Positions 3,136 to 21,128 are shown, counted from the first letter of the stretch. The stretch is 64,000 bases of DNA from a virus (IMGVR_UViG_3300042875_000419); one strand, 5' to 3'. Notes: generated from the letters alone by a model not told the origin. A program made the numbers and translations.

Positions 3136-3210
3136 TGGTGCTCCGACTAGGAATTGAACCTAGACTCAATGAATTATGAGTTCACTGCTTTACCATTAAG
3201 CTATCGGAGC
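3136..3210 (-). tRNA. tRNA-Ile2/Met (CAT), probably Ile2
   Basis: Cloverleaf, loop CTCATAA, encoded CCA; C4-G69 and C5-G68 pairs as in TilS substrates. Confidence 0.85.
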
Positions 3211-3213
3211 ATT

Positions 3214-3301
3214 TGGTGCGGGAAGAGGGATTCGAACCCTCACGCTTTTTAAATTGCGGCGGGTTTTAAGCCCGCTGTGTCTACCATTCCACCATACCCG
3301 C
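3214..3301 (-). tRNA. tRNA-Leu (TAA)
   Basis: GCGGG-CTTAAAA-CCCGC arm, long variable arm, TTCGAAT, CCA. Confidence 0.95.
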
Positions 3302-3415: not shown

Positions 3416-4846
3416 TTACAGCACTTTGTAACGGTCATCCATGATGGTCTTAAGCATCACAGTTTCTGGTGTGAAGGTTTCTAGGTCACCAGCAAGGAGT
3501 GGCTTAACCACGGCTGGAGAGAAACCAGACACCAGTGCAGTACCAGACTTGTCAAACTTCACAGGCGCATTGCCATATGAAGCGTTCAAGTTCCAGAATA
3601 CAACCTTTGGAAGGATGTAGCCTGCGGCTTCGTACTTACGTGCAATCATTTCGATTGCAGAGTCATCATGCTTGACACATTGGTCAAATTGCATGTCAGA
3701 CAGAATCAACACCATTGAAGGCATATCTTCTTTCGCTACGTTACCTTTTACAGCAACGTCTAGGATTTTCGCAAAGGCCTTGTTCAGGTCAGTGTTCATA
3801 TCCCAGTTGGACTTAACCATTTGGTCAATCTTAGAGTTGATACCACCCTTTAGGTGCATCAATTCTGGCTTGCCAGAGAAGGTCAAGAATGTGTCCTTGA
3901 ACGCACCCTTGTTCTTGTCAGCAAGGTACAATCCCAGAGAGACTGCAACTTCCAAACAGGTCAACTTACCAGTCTTGCCTGCGGTGCAGGTCATAGAACC
4001 GGATACGTCAACCAGAGGCAGAATGTTTGCATCACCAACATAGTTAGGCAATGCGTTCCATTGTGCTTCAATCAAGTCCATTTCGGTCTTGTCGAACTTC
4101 ACACCATAGCTGTTGATACGACCCTTCAGCACATCATATGGGAATACCGCAGATGCGTTAACCTTAACTTCAACGGAACGATCCTTTGGATCCTTCATCA
4201 GTTCTGCAACGTAAGCCGCATAAGCTGGAGAGTTACGGTTGAAAGCCTTCTTGTAACGGGAAGCCGCCACAGAAGGAACATGTGAGAAGTTAATGGAATC
4301 CCAGTCCTTTGCACACATGTTTGTTTCAACAACTTTGGTCATTTCAACCAAAGACTTACGGTAGAACTTTGGTGACATTCCGAAGAATGTACGGATTTCT
4401 GCCGCAAGTGGACCTTGGCGAGGTGTCCACTTAGCCGCCAAACCATTCTTTTCACGGAGTGCGTTACCAAGAATAGTGTATGCGGCTTCTTTCAGTGCTT
4501 TGGTCTTGAAGACAAACAAATCATCCCAACGACCCAATTCTGGCACTTTAGCCAACAGAGCCTTAGCGGCTTCTGTATCAGTGTTTTCCAGATACACTAG
4601 GATATCACGGAACAATTGACGTTCACCAGCACCACCACGTGCATCACGTAGCCATGCGGCAACACGGAGAGCCAATTCACGGTTCTCCGCCAAGGCAGCC
4701 GCAAATGCAGGCTTAATATCTTTTCCACGGGAAGCACCCGCATTGTAAAACAAATCAACCACCGCATTGGCAGTTGACTTGCGAGCCTTCATACCGTTTT
4801 CGGTACGGGCTTCTTGGTTCTTAACAGCTTCGACAAATGTTGACAT
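3416..4846 (-). CDS. Ro60/TROVE-like helical-repeat plus vWA protein (DUF2828-like), 476 aa
   Basis: Motifs RDARGGAGER, GRWDDL, AAKWTPR; vWA MIDAS DVSGSM and LSDMQFD; AAGGAG before ATG at 4846 (the ORF-track start at 4891 lies in an ncRNA). Confidence 0.85.
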   Translation of the reverse strand: MSTFVEAVKNQEARTENGMKARKSTANAVVDLFYNAGASRGKDIKPAFAAALAENRELALRVAAWLRDARGGAGERQLFRDILVYLENTDTEAAKALLAKVPELGRWDDLFVFKTKALKEAAYTILGNALREKNGLAAKWTPRQGPLAAEIRTFFGMSPKFYRKSLVEMTKVVETNMCAKDWDSINFSHVPSVAASRYKKAFNRNSPAYAAYVAELMKDPKDRSVEVKVNASAVFPYDVLKGRINSYGVKFDKTEMDLIEAQWNALPNYVGDANILPLVDVSGSMTCTAGKTGKLTCLEVAVSLGLYLADKNKGAFKDTFLTFSGKPELMHLKGGINSKIDQMVKSNWDMNTDLNKAFAKILDVAVKGNVAKEDMPSMVLILSDMQFDQCVKHDDSAIEMIARKYEAAGYILPKVVFWNLNASYGNAPVKFDKSGTALVSGFSPAVVKPLLAGDLETFTPETVMLKTIMDDRYKVL

Positions 4847-4865
4847 AATGAACTCCTTTTCAATC

Positions 4866-4986
4866 AACAGGTTAAACTTTTTGCGGACCAACGTGCTACC
4901 ATTACACTAGACCCCTAAGGGAGTCCGGAATCGAACCGGTCTTTCAGTTTTCATTTGCATATTTTGTTTTGCGGAACTTAACCTAA
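4866..4986 (-). ncRNA. Y-RNA-like RNA E with permuted tRNA-mimic domain (YrlA-like)
   Basis: Terminal stem AGGUUAA/UUAACCU, GUUCCGCAA motif; inside, T-arm CCGG-UUCGAUU-CCGG, loop-closed acceptor stem, then D-arm GUGU-AAUGGUA-GCAC. Confidence 0.75.
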
Positions 4987-4993
4987 AAAAAAT

Positions 4994-5205
4994 AACAGGA
5001 TGGTCGTTCTGTAATTTTCTGTTTACTCTAACAGGAGTGCAATTGAACCACTCAAACCCCGATGGATTACCATCATCTTTCTGTCTTTCCAGAGTCAAAT
5101 TTAATTGAGGTTTATTCCCTAGTCTACGAAAATACACCTTGCGGTGGTCCCTCCATTGTAGACGGTTCTGTAGTAAGTTAATTTAAACTTGCTGAATCCA
5201 TCCTA
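4994..5205 (-). ncRNA. Y-RNA-like RNA A (large insert)
   Basis: Terminal stem AGGAUGG/CCAUCCU, AUUCAGCAA motif, several internal hairpins including CACC-GCAA-GGUG. Confidence 0.65.
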
Positions 5206-5232
5206 AAAAACTTATATAATCTCCATATAAAG

Positions 5233-5261
5233 ATTATATCACGTTAAGTGTAACTTGGCAA
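5233..5261 (-). promoter_or_regulatory. sigma70-type promoter for RNA A, RNA E and the TROVE-like gene
   Basis: TTGCCA-17 nt-TATAAT. Confidence 0.8.
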
Positions 5262-5292
5262 GGCTTTTTTGCATTGTTGCCTAAAAACAACA

Positions 5293-5367
5293 TGGTGTCC
5301 TCGACAGGAATCGAACCTGTATCCCATTCTTAGGAGGAACGTATTCTATCCATTGAACTACAAGGAC
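5293..5367 (-). tRNA. tRNA-Arg (CCT)
   Basis: Cloverleaf, loop CTCCTAA, CCA. Confidence 0.9.
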
Positions 5368-5778: not shown

Positions 5779-6018
5779 TCATTCAAATACCGCAATCACA
5801 TCATCAATGTGAATACGATATGTTTCCTTTTCAATTTTATATGCTTTGTTCCAATTAATCAATAGTTCTTCACCAATTGAAAGTGATTCATCACCAGTTG
5901 CAATTACAATTGCACGATCTGGTTCAATAGAACTTTGTAGAATGATACCACCGGAAGAAACTTTCTCTGGTTCTTTTCGTTCAACAATTACATTACGATT
6001 CAATGGAACATACGTCAT
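5779..6018 (-). CDS. groES: Co-chaperonin GroES/Cpn10
   Basis: PLNRNVIVER...SSGGIILQ mobile loop, A-V-A-G strand, DDVIAV C-terminus. Confidence 0.9.
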   Translation of the reverse strand: MTYVPLNRNVIVERKEPEKVSSGGIILQSSIEPDRAIVIATGDESLSIGEELLINWNKAYKIEKETYRIHIDDVIAVFE

Positions 6019-7290: not shown

Positions 7291-7357
7291 CAACAGAATA
7301 GTTTTTGCGTTTTCAATTACAAGTTGAATGCTTTTTATTTGCTGAACCTATTCTAAA
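7291..7357 (-). ncRNA. Y-RNA-like RNA B with anticodon-like hairpin (UGU)
   Basis: Stem AGAAUAG/CUAUUCU, GUUCAGCAA motif, inner UUCAA-CUUGUAA-UUGAA. Confidence 0.7.
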
Positions 7358-7359
7358 AC

Positions 7360-7435
7360 TGGCTCCGGTCTCAGGATTCGAACCTGACTTCAAGGATTAA
7401 CAGTCCTCCGCCCACACCTAGTTTGCTTCACCGGA
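7360..7435 (-). tRNA. tRNA-Asn (GTT)
   Basis: GAGGA-CTGTTAA-TCCTT arm, G73, CCA. Confidence 0.92.
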
Positions 7436-7442
7436 ATAAAAT

Positions 7443-7511
7443 AACAGGATGATTTTTGTCGCTAGACAACCATAAAGTTTAGCTAATTTTATTTGCTGTA
7501 CTCATCCTAAA
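7443..7511 (-). ncRNA. Y-RNA-like RNA C
   Basis: Stem AGGAUGA/UCAUCCU, GUACAGCAA motif, inner UUGUC-UAGC-GACAA. Confidence 0.65.
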
Positions 7512-7514
7512 AAC

Positions 7515-19772: not shown

Positions 19773-21128
19773 TCACCTACCCACCTGGCCAAGGTACTTA
19801 GATTTAGTTTCTTCCCAAGTCATGTAGACCAGGTCATCATAGAAAAGAGTTTCATATGAAACATTATTTTTCTTCTGCAATTGGCGGATACGACCTTTGG
19901 CATACTTGATCTTCCATAGTTCCGAAAGGGCTTCCTCAGAGGTGTCGAAAGACTTTACGAGTTGTTCTTCGGCAATTTCTCCACGGAGAAACTCATTCGT
20001 ATTATTGTAGAGAGGTGAGAAATAGATACCACGTTGGTGTGCGGTGCGTGTTAACTCTTTTGGTATGCCAAGTTTTGGATACAAGAAGTGTAGTGAACGA
20101 TTCTTGTGGTCACGTTTGAACGGAAGACCTTTATCGTTCTTAGCTTCCCACCACTCAAAGTATTTTTCTGTGTGGTTCTCTTTCAGCCAGTTCCAAAGCA
20201 TGTTTAGTGTGGACTTCCGTGGTTCAAAAGCAACAGAACCAGATGAGAAACCCATCTTGTTCCAGTGTTCAAGCCCATCATATTGAGAAAGCCCACCAGA
20301 CTTAGTATTTCCATACAGAGAAGTGGTTGTAACTCCGGCAAGAACATCACCATATTTTTCTTTCCACAATTTCTGAACTGTATCAGACAGGCAAAGCAAC
20401 GCAAGTAGTTTACCACCCATGTAATTGAAACCGAGCGGCTGGAGTGGAACAATAGACGAACCGATTGCAGTGTGGTTAATCATACCACCTTGAGTTTTCT
20501 TTTCACGTTCCCATCCAATAGCAGTATCACGTGGGGTCAAATCAAGAAAGTCGGAAGAAATACAAACAACACCAAGATACTTACCGGTCACATCATCCTT
20601 CACGATAAAGTTAAGATTTCGACCAATGTTCGAGTTGTTCTTCATCGTTGAGATAAAGGTACGTGTCGTGTTCCACAATATAGGAAGGTCTTTAGTACGC
20701 TTCTTGTCGCTTTTTATGGTCGTACCGTCAATTCCTGTCGTGAATTTTGATCCGGAGTCATCAGTGAATTCCATAACAGGGCGCAGATTCATAAAGTCAT
20801 CAGGCGATTCTGGTATCCAGATGTTGCTCTTGGCAATGTCGATGTACTTACCTTGTTCTTCATCAACCAGAACCTTCTCATCACCCCAAAAAGTGTTATT
20901 GGTTTTTGTTGGAAACTTTTCTTGAACTTCACACCACTTCTGGAACAAAGTATATTCTTTAACGTCCATGTTGGACGCATAGGTCAAATCTTCTGTGAGG
21001 ACTTTTTTCAGTTCTTCGGTATCGATGTGTTCAAATGAACTTTTTGGATTCTTTTCCGACCATTCTTCCCACTGTTTCTGCACATGTGTGGGCCACTTTT
21101 CGTTTTCAACATCAGAATCGTTTGACAT
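19773..21128 (-). CDS. DUF4338 (DruA-like) domain protein
   Basis: IGRNLNFIV.D, LG.....SD, RD..IGW, IVP.QP.G.N..GGKLLALL, TTTSLYG. Confidence 0.65.
   Translation of the reverse strand: MSNDSDVENEKWPTHVQKQWEEWSEKNPKSSFEHIDTEELKKVLTEDLTYASNMDVKEYTLFQKWCEVQEKFPTKTNNTFWGDEKVLVDEEQGKYIDIAKSNIWIPESPDDFMNLRPVMEFTDDSGSKFTTGIDGTTIKSDKKRTKDLPILWNTTRTFISTMKNNSNIGRNLNFIVKDDVTGKYLGVVCISSDFLDLTPRDTAIGWEREKKTQGGMINHTAIGSSIVPLQPLGFNYMGGKLLALLCLSDTVQKLWKEKYGDVLAGVTTTSLYGNTKSGGLSQYDGLEHWNKMGFSSGSVAFEPRKSTLNMLWNWLKENHTEKYFEWWEAKNDKGLPFKRDHKNRSLHFLYPKLGIPKELTRTAHQRGIYFSPLYNNTNEFLRGEIAEEQLVKSFDTSEEALSELWKIKYAKGRIRQLQKKNNVSYETLFYDDLVYMTWEETKSKYLGQVGR

What the first reader, a model, noticed from the sequence alone, without database searches (positions are those of the whole stretch)
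4866..4986. Circularly permuted tRNA mimic (YrlA architecture) directly upstream of the TROVE-like ORF
Inside the shared stem the order is T-arm (CCGG-UUCGAUU-CCGG), an acceptor-like stem closed by a loop (GACUCC-CUUA-GGGGUC), UA, then a D-arm (GUGU-AAUGGUA-GCAC) with the conserved GG. ACUGA/UUGGU can form the anticodon-stem equivalent leading to the protein-binding helix. There is no anticodon loop and no CCA end. T-before-D order with a closed acceptor stem is the established hallmark of bacterial YrlA RNAs. This is the strongest independent support that the DUF2828-like protein acts like Ro60.
Basis: partly seen in the sequence, partly recalled or inferred. Interest (0 to 1): 0.85.

Follow-up and report, generated by a model that had tools for sequence, protein, structure and literature searches.

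The report
Permuted tRNA-like partner RNA of phage Ro60
A T4-like phage encodes, just upstream of a Ro60-shaped protein gene, a conserved 116-nt RNA that is a rearranged tRNA look-alike held in a stem-plus-CAGCAA-type "handle"; it belongs to a widespread Y-RNA-like family I could not find described in print, which travels with this protein in many phages and bacteria.

Summary
On the minus strand, 4984→4869 folds as a 10-bp closing stem, a CCGCAA motif, a 5-bp anticodon-stem equivalent, a T arm, a closed acceptor-like hairpin, CUA and a D arm. There is no anticodon loop and no CCA.

In 21 distinct relatives the closing, T and D stems pair in 100% of cells, with compensatory changes. A covariance model finds the same T–acceptor–D unit beside homologous genes in Felix O1, mycobacteriophage Rumpelstiltskin, Bacillus, Enterococcus and Ralstonia phages, and in bacterial assemblies.

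The adjacent DUF2828/DUF7788 protein models confidently, and its best structural matches are all Ro60.

It is not a member of Rfam YrlA. The score is far below threshold, and the handle motif is C[A/C]GCAA rather than GNCGAA. The handle instead resembles Dictyostelium Class I RNA; a sister unit scores 39.6 bits against a cut-off of 41.5.

A handle model hit all five DUF2828-positive phage genomes tested and none of five negative ones. In bacterial and archaeal loci, 69 of 69 hits lay on the gene's strand.

Most likely it is a Y-RNA-type adaptor or decoy docked on the phage Ro60-like protein; binding is inferred. This scan has already reported the same family in at least 99 other genomes.

The parts
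4869..4984 (-). The RNA unit itself: handle plus circularly permuted tRNA-like core (116 nt)
   Evidence: Sequence; CM R1 105.3 bits; covariation
4975..4984 (-). Closing stem, 5' strand (AGGUUAAGUU)
   Evidence: First 7 pairs are 100% paired in 21 relatives, 4 of them with compensatory changes
4869..4878 (-). Closing stem, 3' strand (AGUUUAACCU), followed by GUU
   Evidence: the 3' ...CUGU end is shared with the Class I RNA consensus
4969..4974 (-). Handle motif CCGCAA (family consensus C[A/C]GCAA, 3 nt after the 7-bp stem)
   Evidence: C11, G13, C14, A15 and A16 are invariant in A1; C11, G13, C14 and A15 are invariant and A16 nearly invariant (>=90%) in A4
4877..4884 (-). 3' half of the handle's internal loop: GCAAAAAG A-run
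   Evidence: A104-A107 invariant in A1; A-run present in the units of distant phages
4944..4948 (-). Anticodon-stem equivalent, 5' strand ACUGA (tRNA positions 39-43)
   Evidence: Helix 2: 3 pairs with double changes, 79.5% paired (window-type relatives)
4887..4891 (-). Anticodon-stem equivalent, 3' strand UUGGU (tRNA positions 27-31)
4925..4939 (-). T arm CCGG-UUCGAUU-CCGG
   Evidence: GGUUCGA.UCC invariant; stem 100% paired with CG/UA/AU/GU variants
4911..4924 (-). Closed acceptor-like hairpin ACUCC-CUUA-GGGGU
   Evidence: RNAfold of the inter-arm segment in 24 units gives a hairpin of unrelated sequence at the same place, 7 bp in most lineages
4893..4907 (-). D arm GUGU-AAUGGUA-GCAC, preceded by linker CUA (4908-4910)
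   Evidence: Stem 100% paired, 3 of 4 pairs compensatory; A14 and G19 invariant, G18 conserved
3416..4846 (-). Ro60-like protein gene (DUF2828 + DUF7788; TROVE-like ring plus vWA); SD AAGGAG at 4853-4858
   Evidence: Pfam; PHROG 850 'RNA-binding protein'; AF2 pLDDT 91.5; top PDB and Swiss-Prot fold hits are all Ro60
5233..5261 (-). Sigma-70-like promoter TTGCCA-17-TATAAT with TG extension, likely start of the RNA-RNA-gene transcript
   Evidence: 11 of 12 match; consensus match only
4997..5204 (-). Sister unit with the same handle (AGGAUGG...UUCAGCAA...CCAUCCU-GU) and a 180-nt insert holding a T-arm-like hairpin
   Evidence: Frame scans
7295..7354 (-). Short sister unit (handle plus anticodon-arm-like hairpin)
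   Evidence: R2 62.4 bits; RF01414 17.6 bits
7446..7508 (-). Short sister unit
   Evidence: R2 46.4 bits
8343..8396 (-). Short sister unit, near-threshold match to Dictyostelium Class I RNA
   Evidence: RF01414 39.6 bits against a cut-off of 41.5, E 8.9e-6; R2 59.4 bits

Best explanation
The element is a small non-coding RNA of the Y-RNA type with two modules.

Module 1 is a 'handle': a closing stem, then C[A/C]GCAA on the 5' strand facing an A-run on the 3' strand, ending ...CCU-GU. All five units in the window share it. I infer that it is the docking site for the Ro60-like ring protein encoded 22 nt downstream.

Module 2 is a circularly permuted tRNA body: an anticodon-stem equivalent, variable loop, T arm, acceptor stem closed by a loop, U8/A9-like linker and D arm. 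It should form the tRNA elbow but cannot be charged or decode.

The RNA is probably transcribed from the promoter at 5261-5233 together with unit 4997-5204 and the protein gene, and then cut out of the leader. The tRNA-like module then either recruits a factor that recognises tRNA shape to the Ro60-like protein, or sequesters it. Candidates are a tRNA-targeting host nuclease, a processing or modification enzyme, or an exoribonuclease.

Shown: the fold's conservation, the protein's Ro60 fold, and the handle-gene co-occurrence. Inferred: binding, processing and the identity of the recruited factor.
For: 1. Structure is conserved by covariation. The T-acceptor-D order inside the handle recurs at E 1e-7 to 1e-11 next to homologous genes in Felix O1, Rumpelstiltskin, Tsamsa, Enterococcus EA1 and RSP15. 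It also recurs in bacterial assemblies, including Treponema saccharophilum DSM 2985 and a Carnobacterium MAG.

2. tRNA-defining nucleotides are invariant or nearly so: A14, G18/G19, G53, U54, U55, C56, A58 and C61 invariant or conserved, U8 nearly invariant. In most lineages the T stem is 5 bp and the acceptor 7 bp, followed by UA or UG. That is exact tRNA geometry.

3. The protein has a Ro60 fold. The model has pLDDT 91.5. The 13 best PDB hits are all Ro60, including phage phiLo Ro60 (E 1.7e-8, TM up to 0.64). The Swiss-Prot top 5 are Ro60, followed by other TROVE proteins.

4. Handle and gene travel together.
- Frame scan: units lie on the gene strand in 10 of 14 distant phage loci, against 0.2 expected per locus.
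- Handle model R2 hits 5 of 5 DUF7788-positive genomes; 4 of these were not in the seed. It hits 0 of 5 negative genomes: T4, T5, phiKZ, SPO1 and Bxz1.
- In 80 bacterial or archaeal loci, 69 of 69 R2 hits are on the gene's strand, mostly within 800 nt upstream.
- In the complete relative G001, all R1 hits lie within 3 kb of the gene.

5. Literature.
- Canonical Ro60 binds adjacent Y RNAs with a tRNA-like YrlA module (PMC4201824), including in a phage (PMC12135203).
- Bas63 gp130 is Ro60-like and sits directly upstream of the tRNA genes. It is inferred, not checked here, to be the Felix O1-type orthologue. It counters the Ppl defence, and its authors guessed at unidentified Y RNAs (10.1101/2024.10.10.617714).
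- Listeria phage CKA15 has very abundant unannotated transcripts within 2 kb upstream of its homologue (PMC12282133).
Against: - No binding, expression or processing data exist for this phage.
- The single sequence does not favour the cloverleaf thermodynamically. Here the T stem is only 4 bp and the acceptor 5 bp.
- One close relative (L003) lacks the acceptor hairpin, and many close relatives carry only a short hairpin unit at this position. The tRNA-like cargo is therefore dispensable or interchangeable.
- Bas63 gp130 alone, expressed from a plasmid or from T7, relieved Ppl (preprint). At least that activity does not need the phage's RNAs.
- In Serratia phage BF the handle units lie about 200 kb from the gene.
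- No RtcB or Rnl2-type ligase is present in the nearest complete genome. An RNA-repair role is therefore not supported for this lineage.
Confidence: 0.6

Rival explanations
1. The RNA is a free-standing tRNA mimic that acts without the Ro60-like protein. It would be, for example, a decoy or inhibitor for a tRNA-targeting defence nuclease or a tRNA-binding enzyme. The handle would then be a processing or stability module, and the gene linkage would reflect co-regulation only.
For: The units are scattered through tRNA arrays (window 7295-8396). In Serratia BF they lie 200 kb from the gene. Short units carry hairpins with 7-nt anticodon-like loops. The Bas63 protein works alone against Ppl.
Against: The handle, not the cargo, is the invariant part. 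Its presence tracks the presence of the protein gene in 10 of 10 genomes tested. It is immediately adjacent and co-oriented in 69 of 69 hits in cellular assemblies.
Confidence: 0.15
2. It is a cis-acting leader of the Ro60-like mRNA. It would be an operator through which the protein autoregulates translation or stability, rather than a trans-acting RNA.
For: The unit ends 10 nt before the SD and 22 nt before the ATG. In this clade a handle unit always occupies that position, whatever its cargo.
Against: In Rumpelstiltskin, Felix O1, S13, RSP15 and Staphylococcus phage CoN_Ph4 the units lie downstream of the gene or among tRNAs. The window itself has three units 2.4-3.5 kb away. A conserved tRNA elbow is not needed for an operator.
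Confidence: 0.12
3. It is an evolutionary relic: a decayed junction of two tandem tRNA or tRNA-like genes, or a mere RNase P/Z punctuation signal, with no function of its own.
For: - Tandem tRNAs do mimic the T-then-D order; R1 scores a true tRNA-Leu/tRNA-Met junction at 30.6 bits.
- S13 and BUCT-ZZ01 carry tandem non-permuted versions whose junctions read as permuted units.
- The acceptor loops of S13 and RSP15 units begin ACCA or GCCA.
Against: The two acceptor strands pair with each other and covary across lineages, for example UUUACGC/GCGUGAA, AUUUCCC/GGGAAAU, UAGCGGC/GUCGCUA and ACUCGGC/GUCGAGU. The unit is framed by its own covarying handle. It is conserved across phages of Actinobacteria, Firmicutes and Proteobacteria.
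Confidence: 0.08
4. It is a circularly permuted pre-tRNA gene, as in Cyanidioschyzon, that is circularised and re-cut to give a decoding tRNA.
For: It has permuted topology. Some relatives (for example L017) carry an anticodon-arm-like hairpin 5' of the T arm. Some acceptor loops keep NCCA.
Against: The window element has no anticodon loop at all. The anticodon-stem equivalent runs into the handle. There is no bulge-helix-bulge motif, and the non-permuted versions also lack an anticodon.
Confidence: 0.03

Closest known systems
YrlA-type bacterial and phage Y RNAs bound by Ro60/Rsr (Rfam RF02553; Chen et al. 2014, PMC4201824; structure preprint 10.1101/312249)
   Same: - A terminal stem formed by the 5' and 3' ends.
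- A tRNA-like module in the order T arm, closed acceptor-like stem-loop, D arm, with conserved T-loop and D-loop nucleotides.
- Encoded in tandem with other Y-like RNAs next to a Ro60-fold gene.
- Some members have a 7-bp acceptor, as M. smegmatis YrlA does.
   Different: - It fails the Rfam model: 13.3 bits against a cut-off of 69.
- The 5'-strand motif is C[A/C]GCAA facing an A-run, not GNCGAA(N)G.
- The partner protein belongs to DUF2828/DUF7788 and is not matched by Pfam TROVE.
- Bxz1, which lacks DUF7788 and which I recall, without testing it here, to encode a canonical TROVE Ro60, has a partial YrlA hit but no CAGCAA handle.
Dictyostelium Class I RNAs (Rfam RF01414; Kjellin et al. 2021, PMC7919456)
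   Same: The handle matches: a short stem joining the 5' and 3' ends, a conserved motif containing ACAGCAA directly 3' of the 5' stem strand, a variable interior, and a 3' ...CUGU end. A sister unit at 8342-8395 scores 39.6 bits against a cut-off of 41.5.
   Different: - Class I RNAs are 42-65 nt and were reported only in dictyostelids. Their published protein partner is the RRM protein Rnp1A, not a Ro60-like protein.
- They carry no tRNA-like module.
- The element under study gives no RF01414 hit at E<=10.
Thermus phage phiLo Ro60 with Yrl1/Yrl2 (PMC12135203)
   Same: A phage-encoded Ro60-fold protein (PDB 9l5y and 9kop are among the top fold hits) with two Y-like RNAs encoded directly upstream. 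The RNAs have a terminal stem plus an internal-loop motif.
   Different: phiLo uses a canonical TROVE protein and a CGAA motif. Its Yrls are not described as permuted tRNA mimics.
Circularly permuted tRNA genes of Cyanidioschyzon merolae (recalled from the literature, not checked here)
   Same: The 3' half (T arm, acceptor 3' strand) precedes the 5' half (acceptor 5' strand, D arm), and a loop joins the acceptor ends.
   Different: Those mature into decoding tRNAs with an anticodon arm. This RNA has none, and carries a protein-handle stem where the anticodon arm would be.

Membership tests
YrlA (Rfam RF02553) | Reaches the family's gathering score (69 bits) | tested here: not met
   No YrlA hit at E<=10 over 4700-5320. 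The 90%-identical G001 homologue scores 13.3 bits over model positions 31-81. No hits in six distant phage loci at E<=0.1.
YrlA (Rfam RF02553) | tRNA-like module in the order T arm, closed acceptor-like stem-loop, D arm, inside a stem made by the RNA's ends | tested here: met
   Sequence; covariation; acceptor hairpins.
YrlA (Rfam RF02553) | Conserved tRNA tertiary-interaction nucleotides (U8, A14, G18, G19, T54, Psi55, C56, A58) | tested here: met
   Invariant or nearly invariant columns of A1. The Levitt 15-48 pair is unclear in the window sequence.
YrlA (Rfam RF02553) | Ro60-binding 5'-strand motif GNCGAA(N0-1)G (PMC4201824) | tested here: not met
   The motif here is CCGCAA, and CAGCAA in most relatives.
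YrlA (Rfam RF02553) | Encoded within 4 kb of a Ro60 orthologue | tested here: inconclusive
   The adjacent protein has the Ro60 fold. However, it belongs to DUF2828/DUF7788 and has no Pfam TROVE match. Profile-to-PDB sequence hits to Ro60 reach only E about 0.05.
YrlA (Rfam RF02553) | Bound by Ro60 in vivo; modified by TruB and DusA | not testable with these tools
   Needs RIP or CLIP and modification mapping.
tRNA (Rfam RF00005) | Cloverleaf with anticodon arm and free acceptor ends | tested here: not met
   Not called by cmscan or ARAGORN. There is no anticodon loop and the acceptor is closed by CUUA.
Dictyostelium Class I RNA (Rfam RF01414) | Reaches the gathering score (41.5 bits) | tested here: not met
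   This element gives no hit at E<=10. Sister units score 39.6 and 17.6 bits.
Dictyostelium Class I RNA (Rfam RF01414) | Short terminal stem, conserved motif (..ACAGCAA) next to the 5' stem strand, 3' CUGU | tested here: met
   The handle of this element has stem-GUU-CCGCAA ... CCU-GU. The consensus is shown, and the features are described in PMC7919456.
CAGCAA-handle RNAs next to DUF2828 proteins (provisional family of this scan) | 7-bp covarying stem, 3 nt, C[A/C]GCAA, variable cargo, A-run, complementary strand, GU; co-occurs with a DUF2828/DUF7788 gene | tested here: met
   (pairing in A4 is by selection).
Ro60 / TROVE-vWA proteins (for the neighbouring gene) | Full-length HEAT-repeat ring plus vWA fold with a MIDAS DxSxS motif | tested here: met
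   Fold hits cover residues about 10-470. D280, S282 and S284 are invariant in 89 homologues.
Ro60 / TROVE-vWA proteins (for the neighbouring gene) | Matches Pfam TROVE (PF05731) | tested here: not met
   Only DUF7788 and DUF2828 are reported.

The most novel reading that the evidence does not exclude
The C[A/C]GCAA handle would define a previously undescribed, very widespread branch of the Ro60/Y-RNA world. In it, DUF2828-type Ro60-like proteins of phages, bacteria and archaea load interchangeable cargo RNAs, namely permuted or unpermuted tRNA bodies, anticodon-arm mimics and T-arm mimics. The particle would act in phage counter-defence or tRNA damage control. The same handle would be the ancestor or counterpart of the functionally unexplained Class I RNAs of dictyostelid amoebae.
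Probability: 0.35. Interest if true: 0.85.

Novelty: new variant of a known kind. Interest (0 to 1): 0.7.

Why it matters
Ro60/Y-RNA particles are a classic but still poorly understood RNA-surveillance system, and the role of the tRNA-like YrlA module is unknown.

DUF2828 proteins are present in hundreds of phages; 701 records matched here. One of them (Bas63 gp130) was shown to counter an anti-phage system. Authors working on Bas63 and on Listeria phage CKA15 explicitly guessed at Y RNAs that had not been identified.

This element and its siblings give those RNAs a concrete definition: a searchable handle and defined cargo types. Three questions become directly testable:
- Does the protein bind the handle?
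- What does the tRNA mimic recruit?
- Are Dictyostelium Class I RNAs partners of a Ro60-like protein?

The work also explains the odd 113-121-nt 'tRNA-Ser/tRNA-OTHER' or intron-containing tRNA annotations seen in several phage genomes.

Tried and rejected
- Rfam at gathering and at E<=10 gave no YrlA, Y_RNA or Class I hit on the element itself.
- ARAGORN found no tRNA or tmRNA there.
- Megablast of the locus against GenBank phages gave no match.
- phmmer of the protein against PDB sequences found nothing.
- NCBIfam found nothing.
- A plain RNAfold z-score was uninformative.
- MAFFT could not keep the acceptor hairpins of different lineages in register, so they were analysed per sequence instead. 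My first two parsers mis-assigned some D arms.
- The supplementary phage table of Chen et al. 2014 is not held. I therefore could not check whether any DUF2828-type phage RNA was among their 22 phages.
- The reviews PMC10870794 and PMC6047535 are not held.
- A literature search for the motif letters was useless.
- The protein-atlas search added nothing on eukaryotic relatives.
- RtcB and Rnl2-type ligase are absent from the nearest complete genome, so I dropped the RNA-repair-operon reading for this lineage.
- I rejected the tRNA-dimer artefact, permuted pre-tRNA and pure cis-leader readings; see the rival explanations.
- I could not map the CKA15 'highly transcribed regions' onto the three A511 units (L090 2202-2467). 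That paper is therefore cited only as suggestive.

Full report
**Context.** The window is part of a T4-like phage. It encodes a gp44-type clamp loader, a gp45 clamp, a gp46-like ATPase, dCMP deaminase and dNMP kinase. Twenty-nine tRNA genes lie on the minus strand between 3136 and 12754. The ORF at 4846-3416 (minus strand) carries Pfam DUF7788 (E 7.5e-49) and DUF2828 (E 5.9e-21) and matches PHROG 850, 'RNA-binding protein'. The finding lies in its leader.

**Observation.** Read on the minus strand, the unit spans 4984 to 4869.
- A 10-bp closing stem, AGGUUAAGUU with AGUUUAACCU.
- CCGCAA, three nucleotides after the first seven stem pairs.
- An A/U-rich stretch.
- ACUGA, which pairs with UUGGU.
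- AAAGA.
- The T arm CCGG-UUCGAUU-CCGG.
- The hairpin ACUCC-CUUA-GGGGU.
- CUA.
- The D arm GUGU-AAUGGUA-GCAC.
- G, then UUGGU, then CCGCAAAAAG, and the 3' strand of the closing stem followed by GUU.

There is no anticodon loop and no CCA. ARAGORN and the Rfam tRNA model do not call the element.

Thermodynamics alone does not single it out. The z-score is 0.08. The cloverleaf is -14.9 kcal/mol against an MFE of -22.6.

**Comparative test, close relatives.** Eighty IMG/VR loci encode the protein at 68-95% identity. The stretch upstream of the start codon always shows one frame: AGG plus 4 nt, 3 nt, C[A/C]GCAA, a variable interior, an A-run, the complementary 7 nt, then GU. The interior is a T-acceptor-D module in about a third of the loci. 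Elsewhere it is a short hairpin. In several loci the tRNA-like unit sits one unit further upstream.

I aligned the 21 distinct tRNA-like units (A1).
- 94.2% of cells form standard pairs, against 27-42% when partners are slid by 1-3 columns.
- 13 of 21 pairs change on both sides.
- The closing, T and D stems are paired in every sequence.
- The anticodon-stem equivalent covaries in the window-type sequences.
- RNAalifold, given no structure, returns the closing, T and D stems.
- The invariant columns are the handle motif and the tRNA signature nucleotides.

**Comparative test, distant relatives.** tblastn finds the protein in 701 GenBank phage records. These include Felixounavirus, KVP40-like, Listeria A511/P100-like, Staphylococcus, Enterococcus, Bacillus and Campylobacter phages, and cluster L mycobacteriophages. 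In the last group it is annotated 'Ro-like RNA binding protein'.

The model R1, built from A1, finds a complete permuted unit in the following:

| Phage | Locus and position | Bits |
|---|---|---|
| Felix O1 | L089 4963-5087 | 64.9 |
| Rumpelstiltskin | L085 4034-4153 | 61.1 |
| Enterococcus EA1, copy 1 | L094 3443-3562 | 58.8 |
| Enterococcus EA1, copy 2 | L094 3628-3743 | 58.6 |
| Ralstonia RSP15 | L095 6269-6396 | 48.7 |
| Bacillus Tsamsa | L093 2200-2322 | 46.1 |
| Cronobacter S13 | L087 4654-4788 | 37.6 |

It also finds units in cellular assemblies, including Treponema saccharophilum DSM 2985 and a Carnobacterium MAG.

Per-sequence folding of the segment between the T and D arms gives a hairpin of unrelated sequence in every lineage. 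It is usually 7 bp, directly abutting a 5-bp T stem and followed by UA or UG. That is exact tRNA geometry. The window's lineage has a shortened version with a 4-bp T stem, a 5-bp acceptor and a 3-nt linker. One relative (L003) has lost the hairpin altogether.

The pairing of the two acceptor strands with covariation excludes the tRNA-dimer artefact. That artefact does occur: a true tRNA-Leu/tRNA-Met junction at 3163-3272 scores 30.6 bits.

**Topological variants.** S13 and Synechococcus phage BUCT-ZZ01 carry unpermuted versions. These have ordinary tRNA ends with ACCA, but the anticodon arm is replaced by the handle closed with a small loop. They are annotated as 113-121-nt tRNA-Ser or tRNA-OTHER and are hit by the tRNA model with a long insertion. 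Aeromonas PX29, whose 117-nt tRNA-Leu is annotated as joined from two pieces, gives junction-type R1 hits and probably carries the same form. The acceptor loops of the permuted S13 and RSP15 units begin ACCA and GCCA. This suggests origin by tandem duplication, and possibly RNase P/CCA processing as described for M. smegmatis YrlA (PMC4201824).

**The protein.** An AlphaFold2 model built on 89 homologues has pLDDT 91.5 and pTM 0.89. The 13 best PDB matches are all Ro60: Xenopus, human, D. radiodurans Rsr and Thermus phage phiLo. E-values run from 1.7e-8 to 7e-6, TM reaches 0.64, and the matches are full length. In Swiss-Prot models the first five hits are Ro60. The other TROVE proteins, telomerase p80 and TEP1, rank 6 and 24. 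The MIDAS residues D280, S282 and S284 are invariant. Sequence methods barely see the relationship (E about 0.05). The neighbour is therefore a divergent Ro60-fold protein outside Pfam TROVE.

**Handle-gene linkage.**
- A strict frame scan finds units on the gene strand in 10 of 14 distant phage loci, against about 0.2 expected per locus from shuffles.
- A handle-only model R2 (A4) was then run on whole genomes. The 100% pairing in A4 is by selection and is not evidence.
- R2 finds 1 unit in KVP40, 5 in Serratia BF, 2 in PX29 and 2 in Staphylococcus CoN_Ph4. None of these four genomes was in the seed. It finds 3 in Felix O1.
- R2 finds none in T4, T5, phiKZ, SPO1 or Bxz1. These lack DUF7788, whereas the five positives have it.
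- In 80 bacterial or archaeal loci fetched through the protein, R2 gives 69 hits at E<=0.01 in 42 loci. All 69 are on the gene's strand, mostly within 800 nt upstream.
- In the 166-kb relative G001, all four R1 hits lie within 3 kb of the gene.
- In the 64-kb window, R2 hits only the three short units.

**Comparison with known families.** Rfam holds YrlA as RF02553 with a cut-off of 69 bits. The element gives no hit at E<=10, and its G001 homologue scores 13.3 bits over the T-acceptor-D part only. The published Ro-binding motif GNCGAA(N)G is replaced by C[A/C]GCAA. Bxz1 has a partial YrlA hit of 32.5 bits but no CAGCAA handle; that it encodes a canonical TROVE Ro60 is from memory and was not tested here.

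Following a lead in earlier notes of this scan, I tested Rfam's Dictyostelium Class I RNA model, RF01414. Its consensus has a stem, CCUUACAGCAA, a variable interior, an A-run, the stem's other strand and a 3' CUG. It matches the sister unit 8342-8395 at 39.6 bits (cut-off 41.5, E 8.9e-6) and the unit 7294-7353 at 17.6 bits. The published description of Class I RNAs (PMC7919456) lists a terminal stem, a conserved motif adjacent to the 5' strand, a variable remainder and a 3' CUGU. This fits the handle.

In short, the element works like a YrlA in its cargo and looks like a Class I RNA in its handle. It passes neither family's membership threshold.

**Function.** No experiment exists for this phage. 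Three papers bear on relatives.
- Bas63, a Felixounavirus, has a Ro60-like gp130 directly upstream of its tRNA genes. I infer, but did not check, that it is the Felix O1-type orthologue. It counters the Ppl defence system, and it also does so alone from a plasmid or when moved into T7. The authors speculate that some 'tRNAs' are Y RNAs.
- Listeria phage CKA15 shows three extremely abundant unannotated transcripts within 2 kb upstream of its homologue, and the protein is found in virions. The authors suggest Y RNAs. I could not map those regions onto the three units I find in A511.
- LeBron gp53 is toxic when overexpressed in M. smegmatis.

The most economical reading is a Y-RNA-type particle. 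The handle docks on the Ro60-like ring, and the tRNA body is an effector-binding or decoy module. Sibling units display anticodon-arm-like or T-arm-like cargo. Binding, processing and the target are inferences.

Several facts argue that the tRNA-like cargo is one interchangeable option rather than an obligatory part:
- the cargo varies at this position among close relatives;
- L003 has lost the acceptor hairpin;
- the Bas63 protein acts alone against Ppl;
- the nearest complete genome lacks RtcB and Rnl2-type ligases.

**Prior record.** The held literature contains no description of these RNAs. The five papers that mention DUF2828 are four on plants and one on a tardigrade genome, and the phage papers only speculate. 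The supplement of Chen et al. 2014 could not be read, so prior listing of some phage members cannot be excluded. This scan has already reported the same handle family in at least 99 other genomes. My tests here were run independently of those notes, except for the Class I lead.

Noticed in passing
L087 4395-4637 (Cronobacter phage S13); L086 4100-4330 (Synechococcus phage BUCT-ZZ01); L097 7720-8097 (Aeromonas phage PX29): S13 and BUCT-ZZ01 carry unpermuted versions of the same RNA. They have normal tRNA acceptor ends with ACCA, D and T arms, but the anticodon arm is replaced by the CAGCAA handle closed by a small loop. They are annotated as 113-121-nt tRNA-Ser or tRNA-OTHER. PX29, with a 117-nt tRNA-Leu annotated as joined from two pieces, gives junction-type model hits and probably has the same form; I did not read its sequence.
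   Followed up: partly
L087 4654-4788 and L095 6269-6396: The loop closing the acceptor stem begins ACCA (S13) or GCCA (RSP15). This looks like a relic discriminator plus CCA. It suggests origin from tandem tRNA-like genes and possible RNase P/CCA-type processing.
   Followed up: no
window 7295-7354, 8343-8396; L014 4287-4346; L066 7-66; L070 1430-1479 and others: Short handle units carry 4-6-bp hairpins with 7-nt loops of anticodon-loop form (Y-U-NNN-R-A). Examples are CUUGUAA, CUGUCAA, CUUUUAA, CUUCUAA and CUGCAAA. The 'V' hairpins of some permuted units (L017 CUUAUAA, L019 CUUUGAA) look the same.
   Followed up: partly
window 4997-5204 (-): A 208-nt unit with the same handle and a large insert holding a T-arm-like hairpin GAGUG-GUUCAAUUG-CACUC. 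Its homologues in L001, L002, L004, L010, L018 and L063 are 208-219 nt long and share a GGAGGACCACCG.AAGGUG core.
   Followed up: no
L001 1137-1230, L002 1248-1352, L009 1249-1354, L037 and others: A second tRNA-like flavour (AGAGUAGG handle). It has a T arm and an acceptor-like hairpin (sometimes with a long insert), then GUGCCACGGUGGCA in place of a normal D arm.
   Followed up: no
window 3163-3272 (-): The junction of tRNA-Leu and tRNA-Met scores 30.6 bits with the permuted-unit model. This is a concrete example of the tRNA-dimer false positive to filter in any wider search.
   Followed up: yes
L104-L183 (bacterial and archaeal assemblies): Handle units precede DUF2828 homologues in 42 of 80 loci. 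These include a Woesearchaeota MAG (L157), Akkermansia, Lachnospiraceae, Chloroflexi and Treponema saccharophilum DSM 2985. I did not examine whether these loci are prophages.
   Followed up: partly
window 19773-21128 (-): A 451-aa phage ORF matches the Pfam DruA (Druantia defence protein) domain at E 7.7e-21.
   Followed up: no
window 8402-8734 (-) and 5779-6018 (-): An HNH endonuclease ORF and a GroES-like ORF sit inside the tRNA/Y-like RNA array.
   Followed up: no
W02 (Serratia phage BF) 302083-307297: Five handle units cluster about 200 kb away from the DUF2828 gene (101.5 kb). Linkage is therefore not obligatory in jumbo phages. An RNA ligase and a CCA-adding enzyme flank the gene there.
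   Followed up: no
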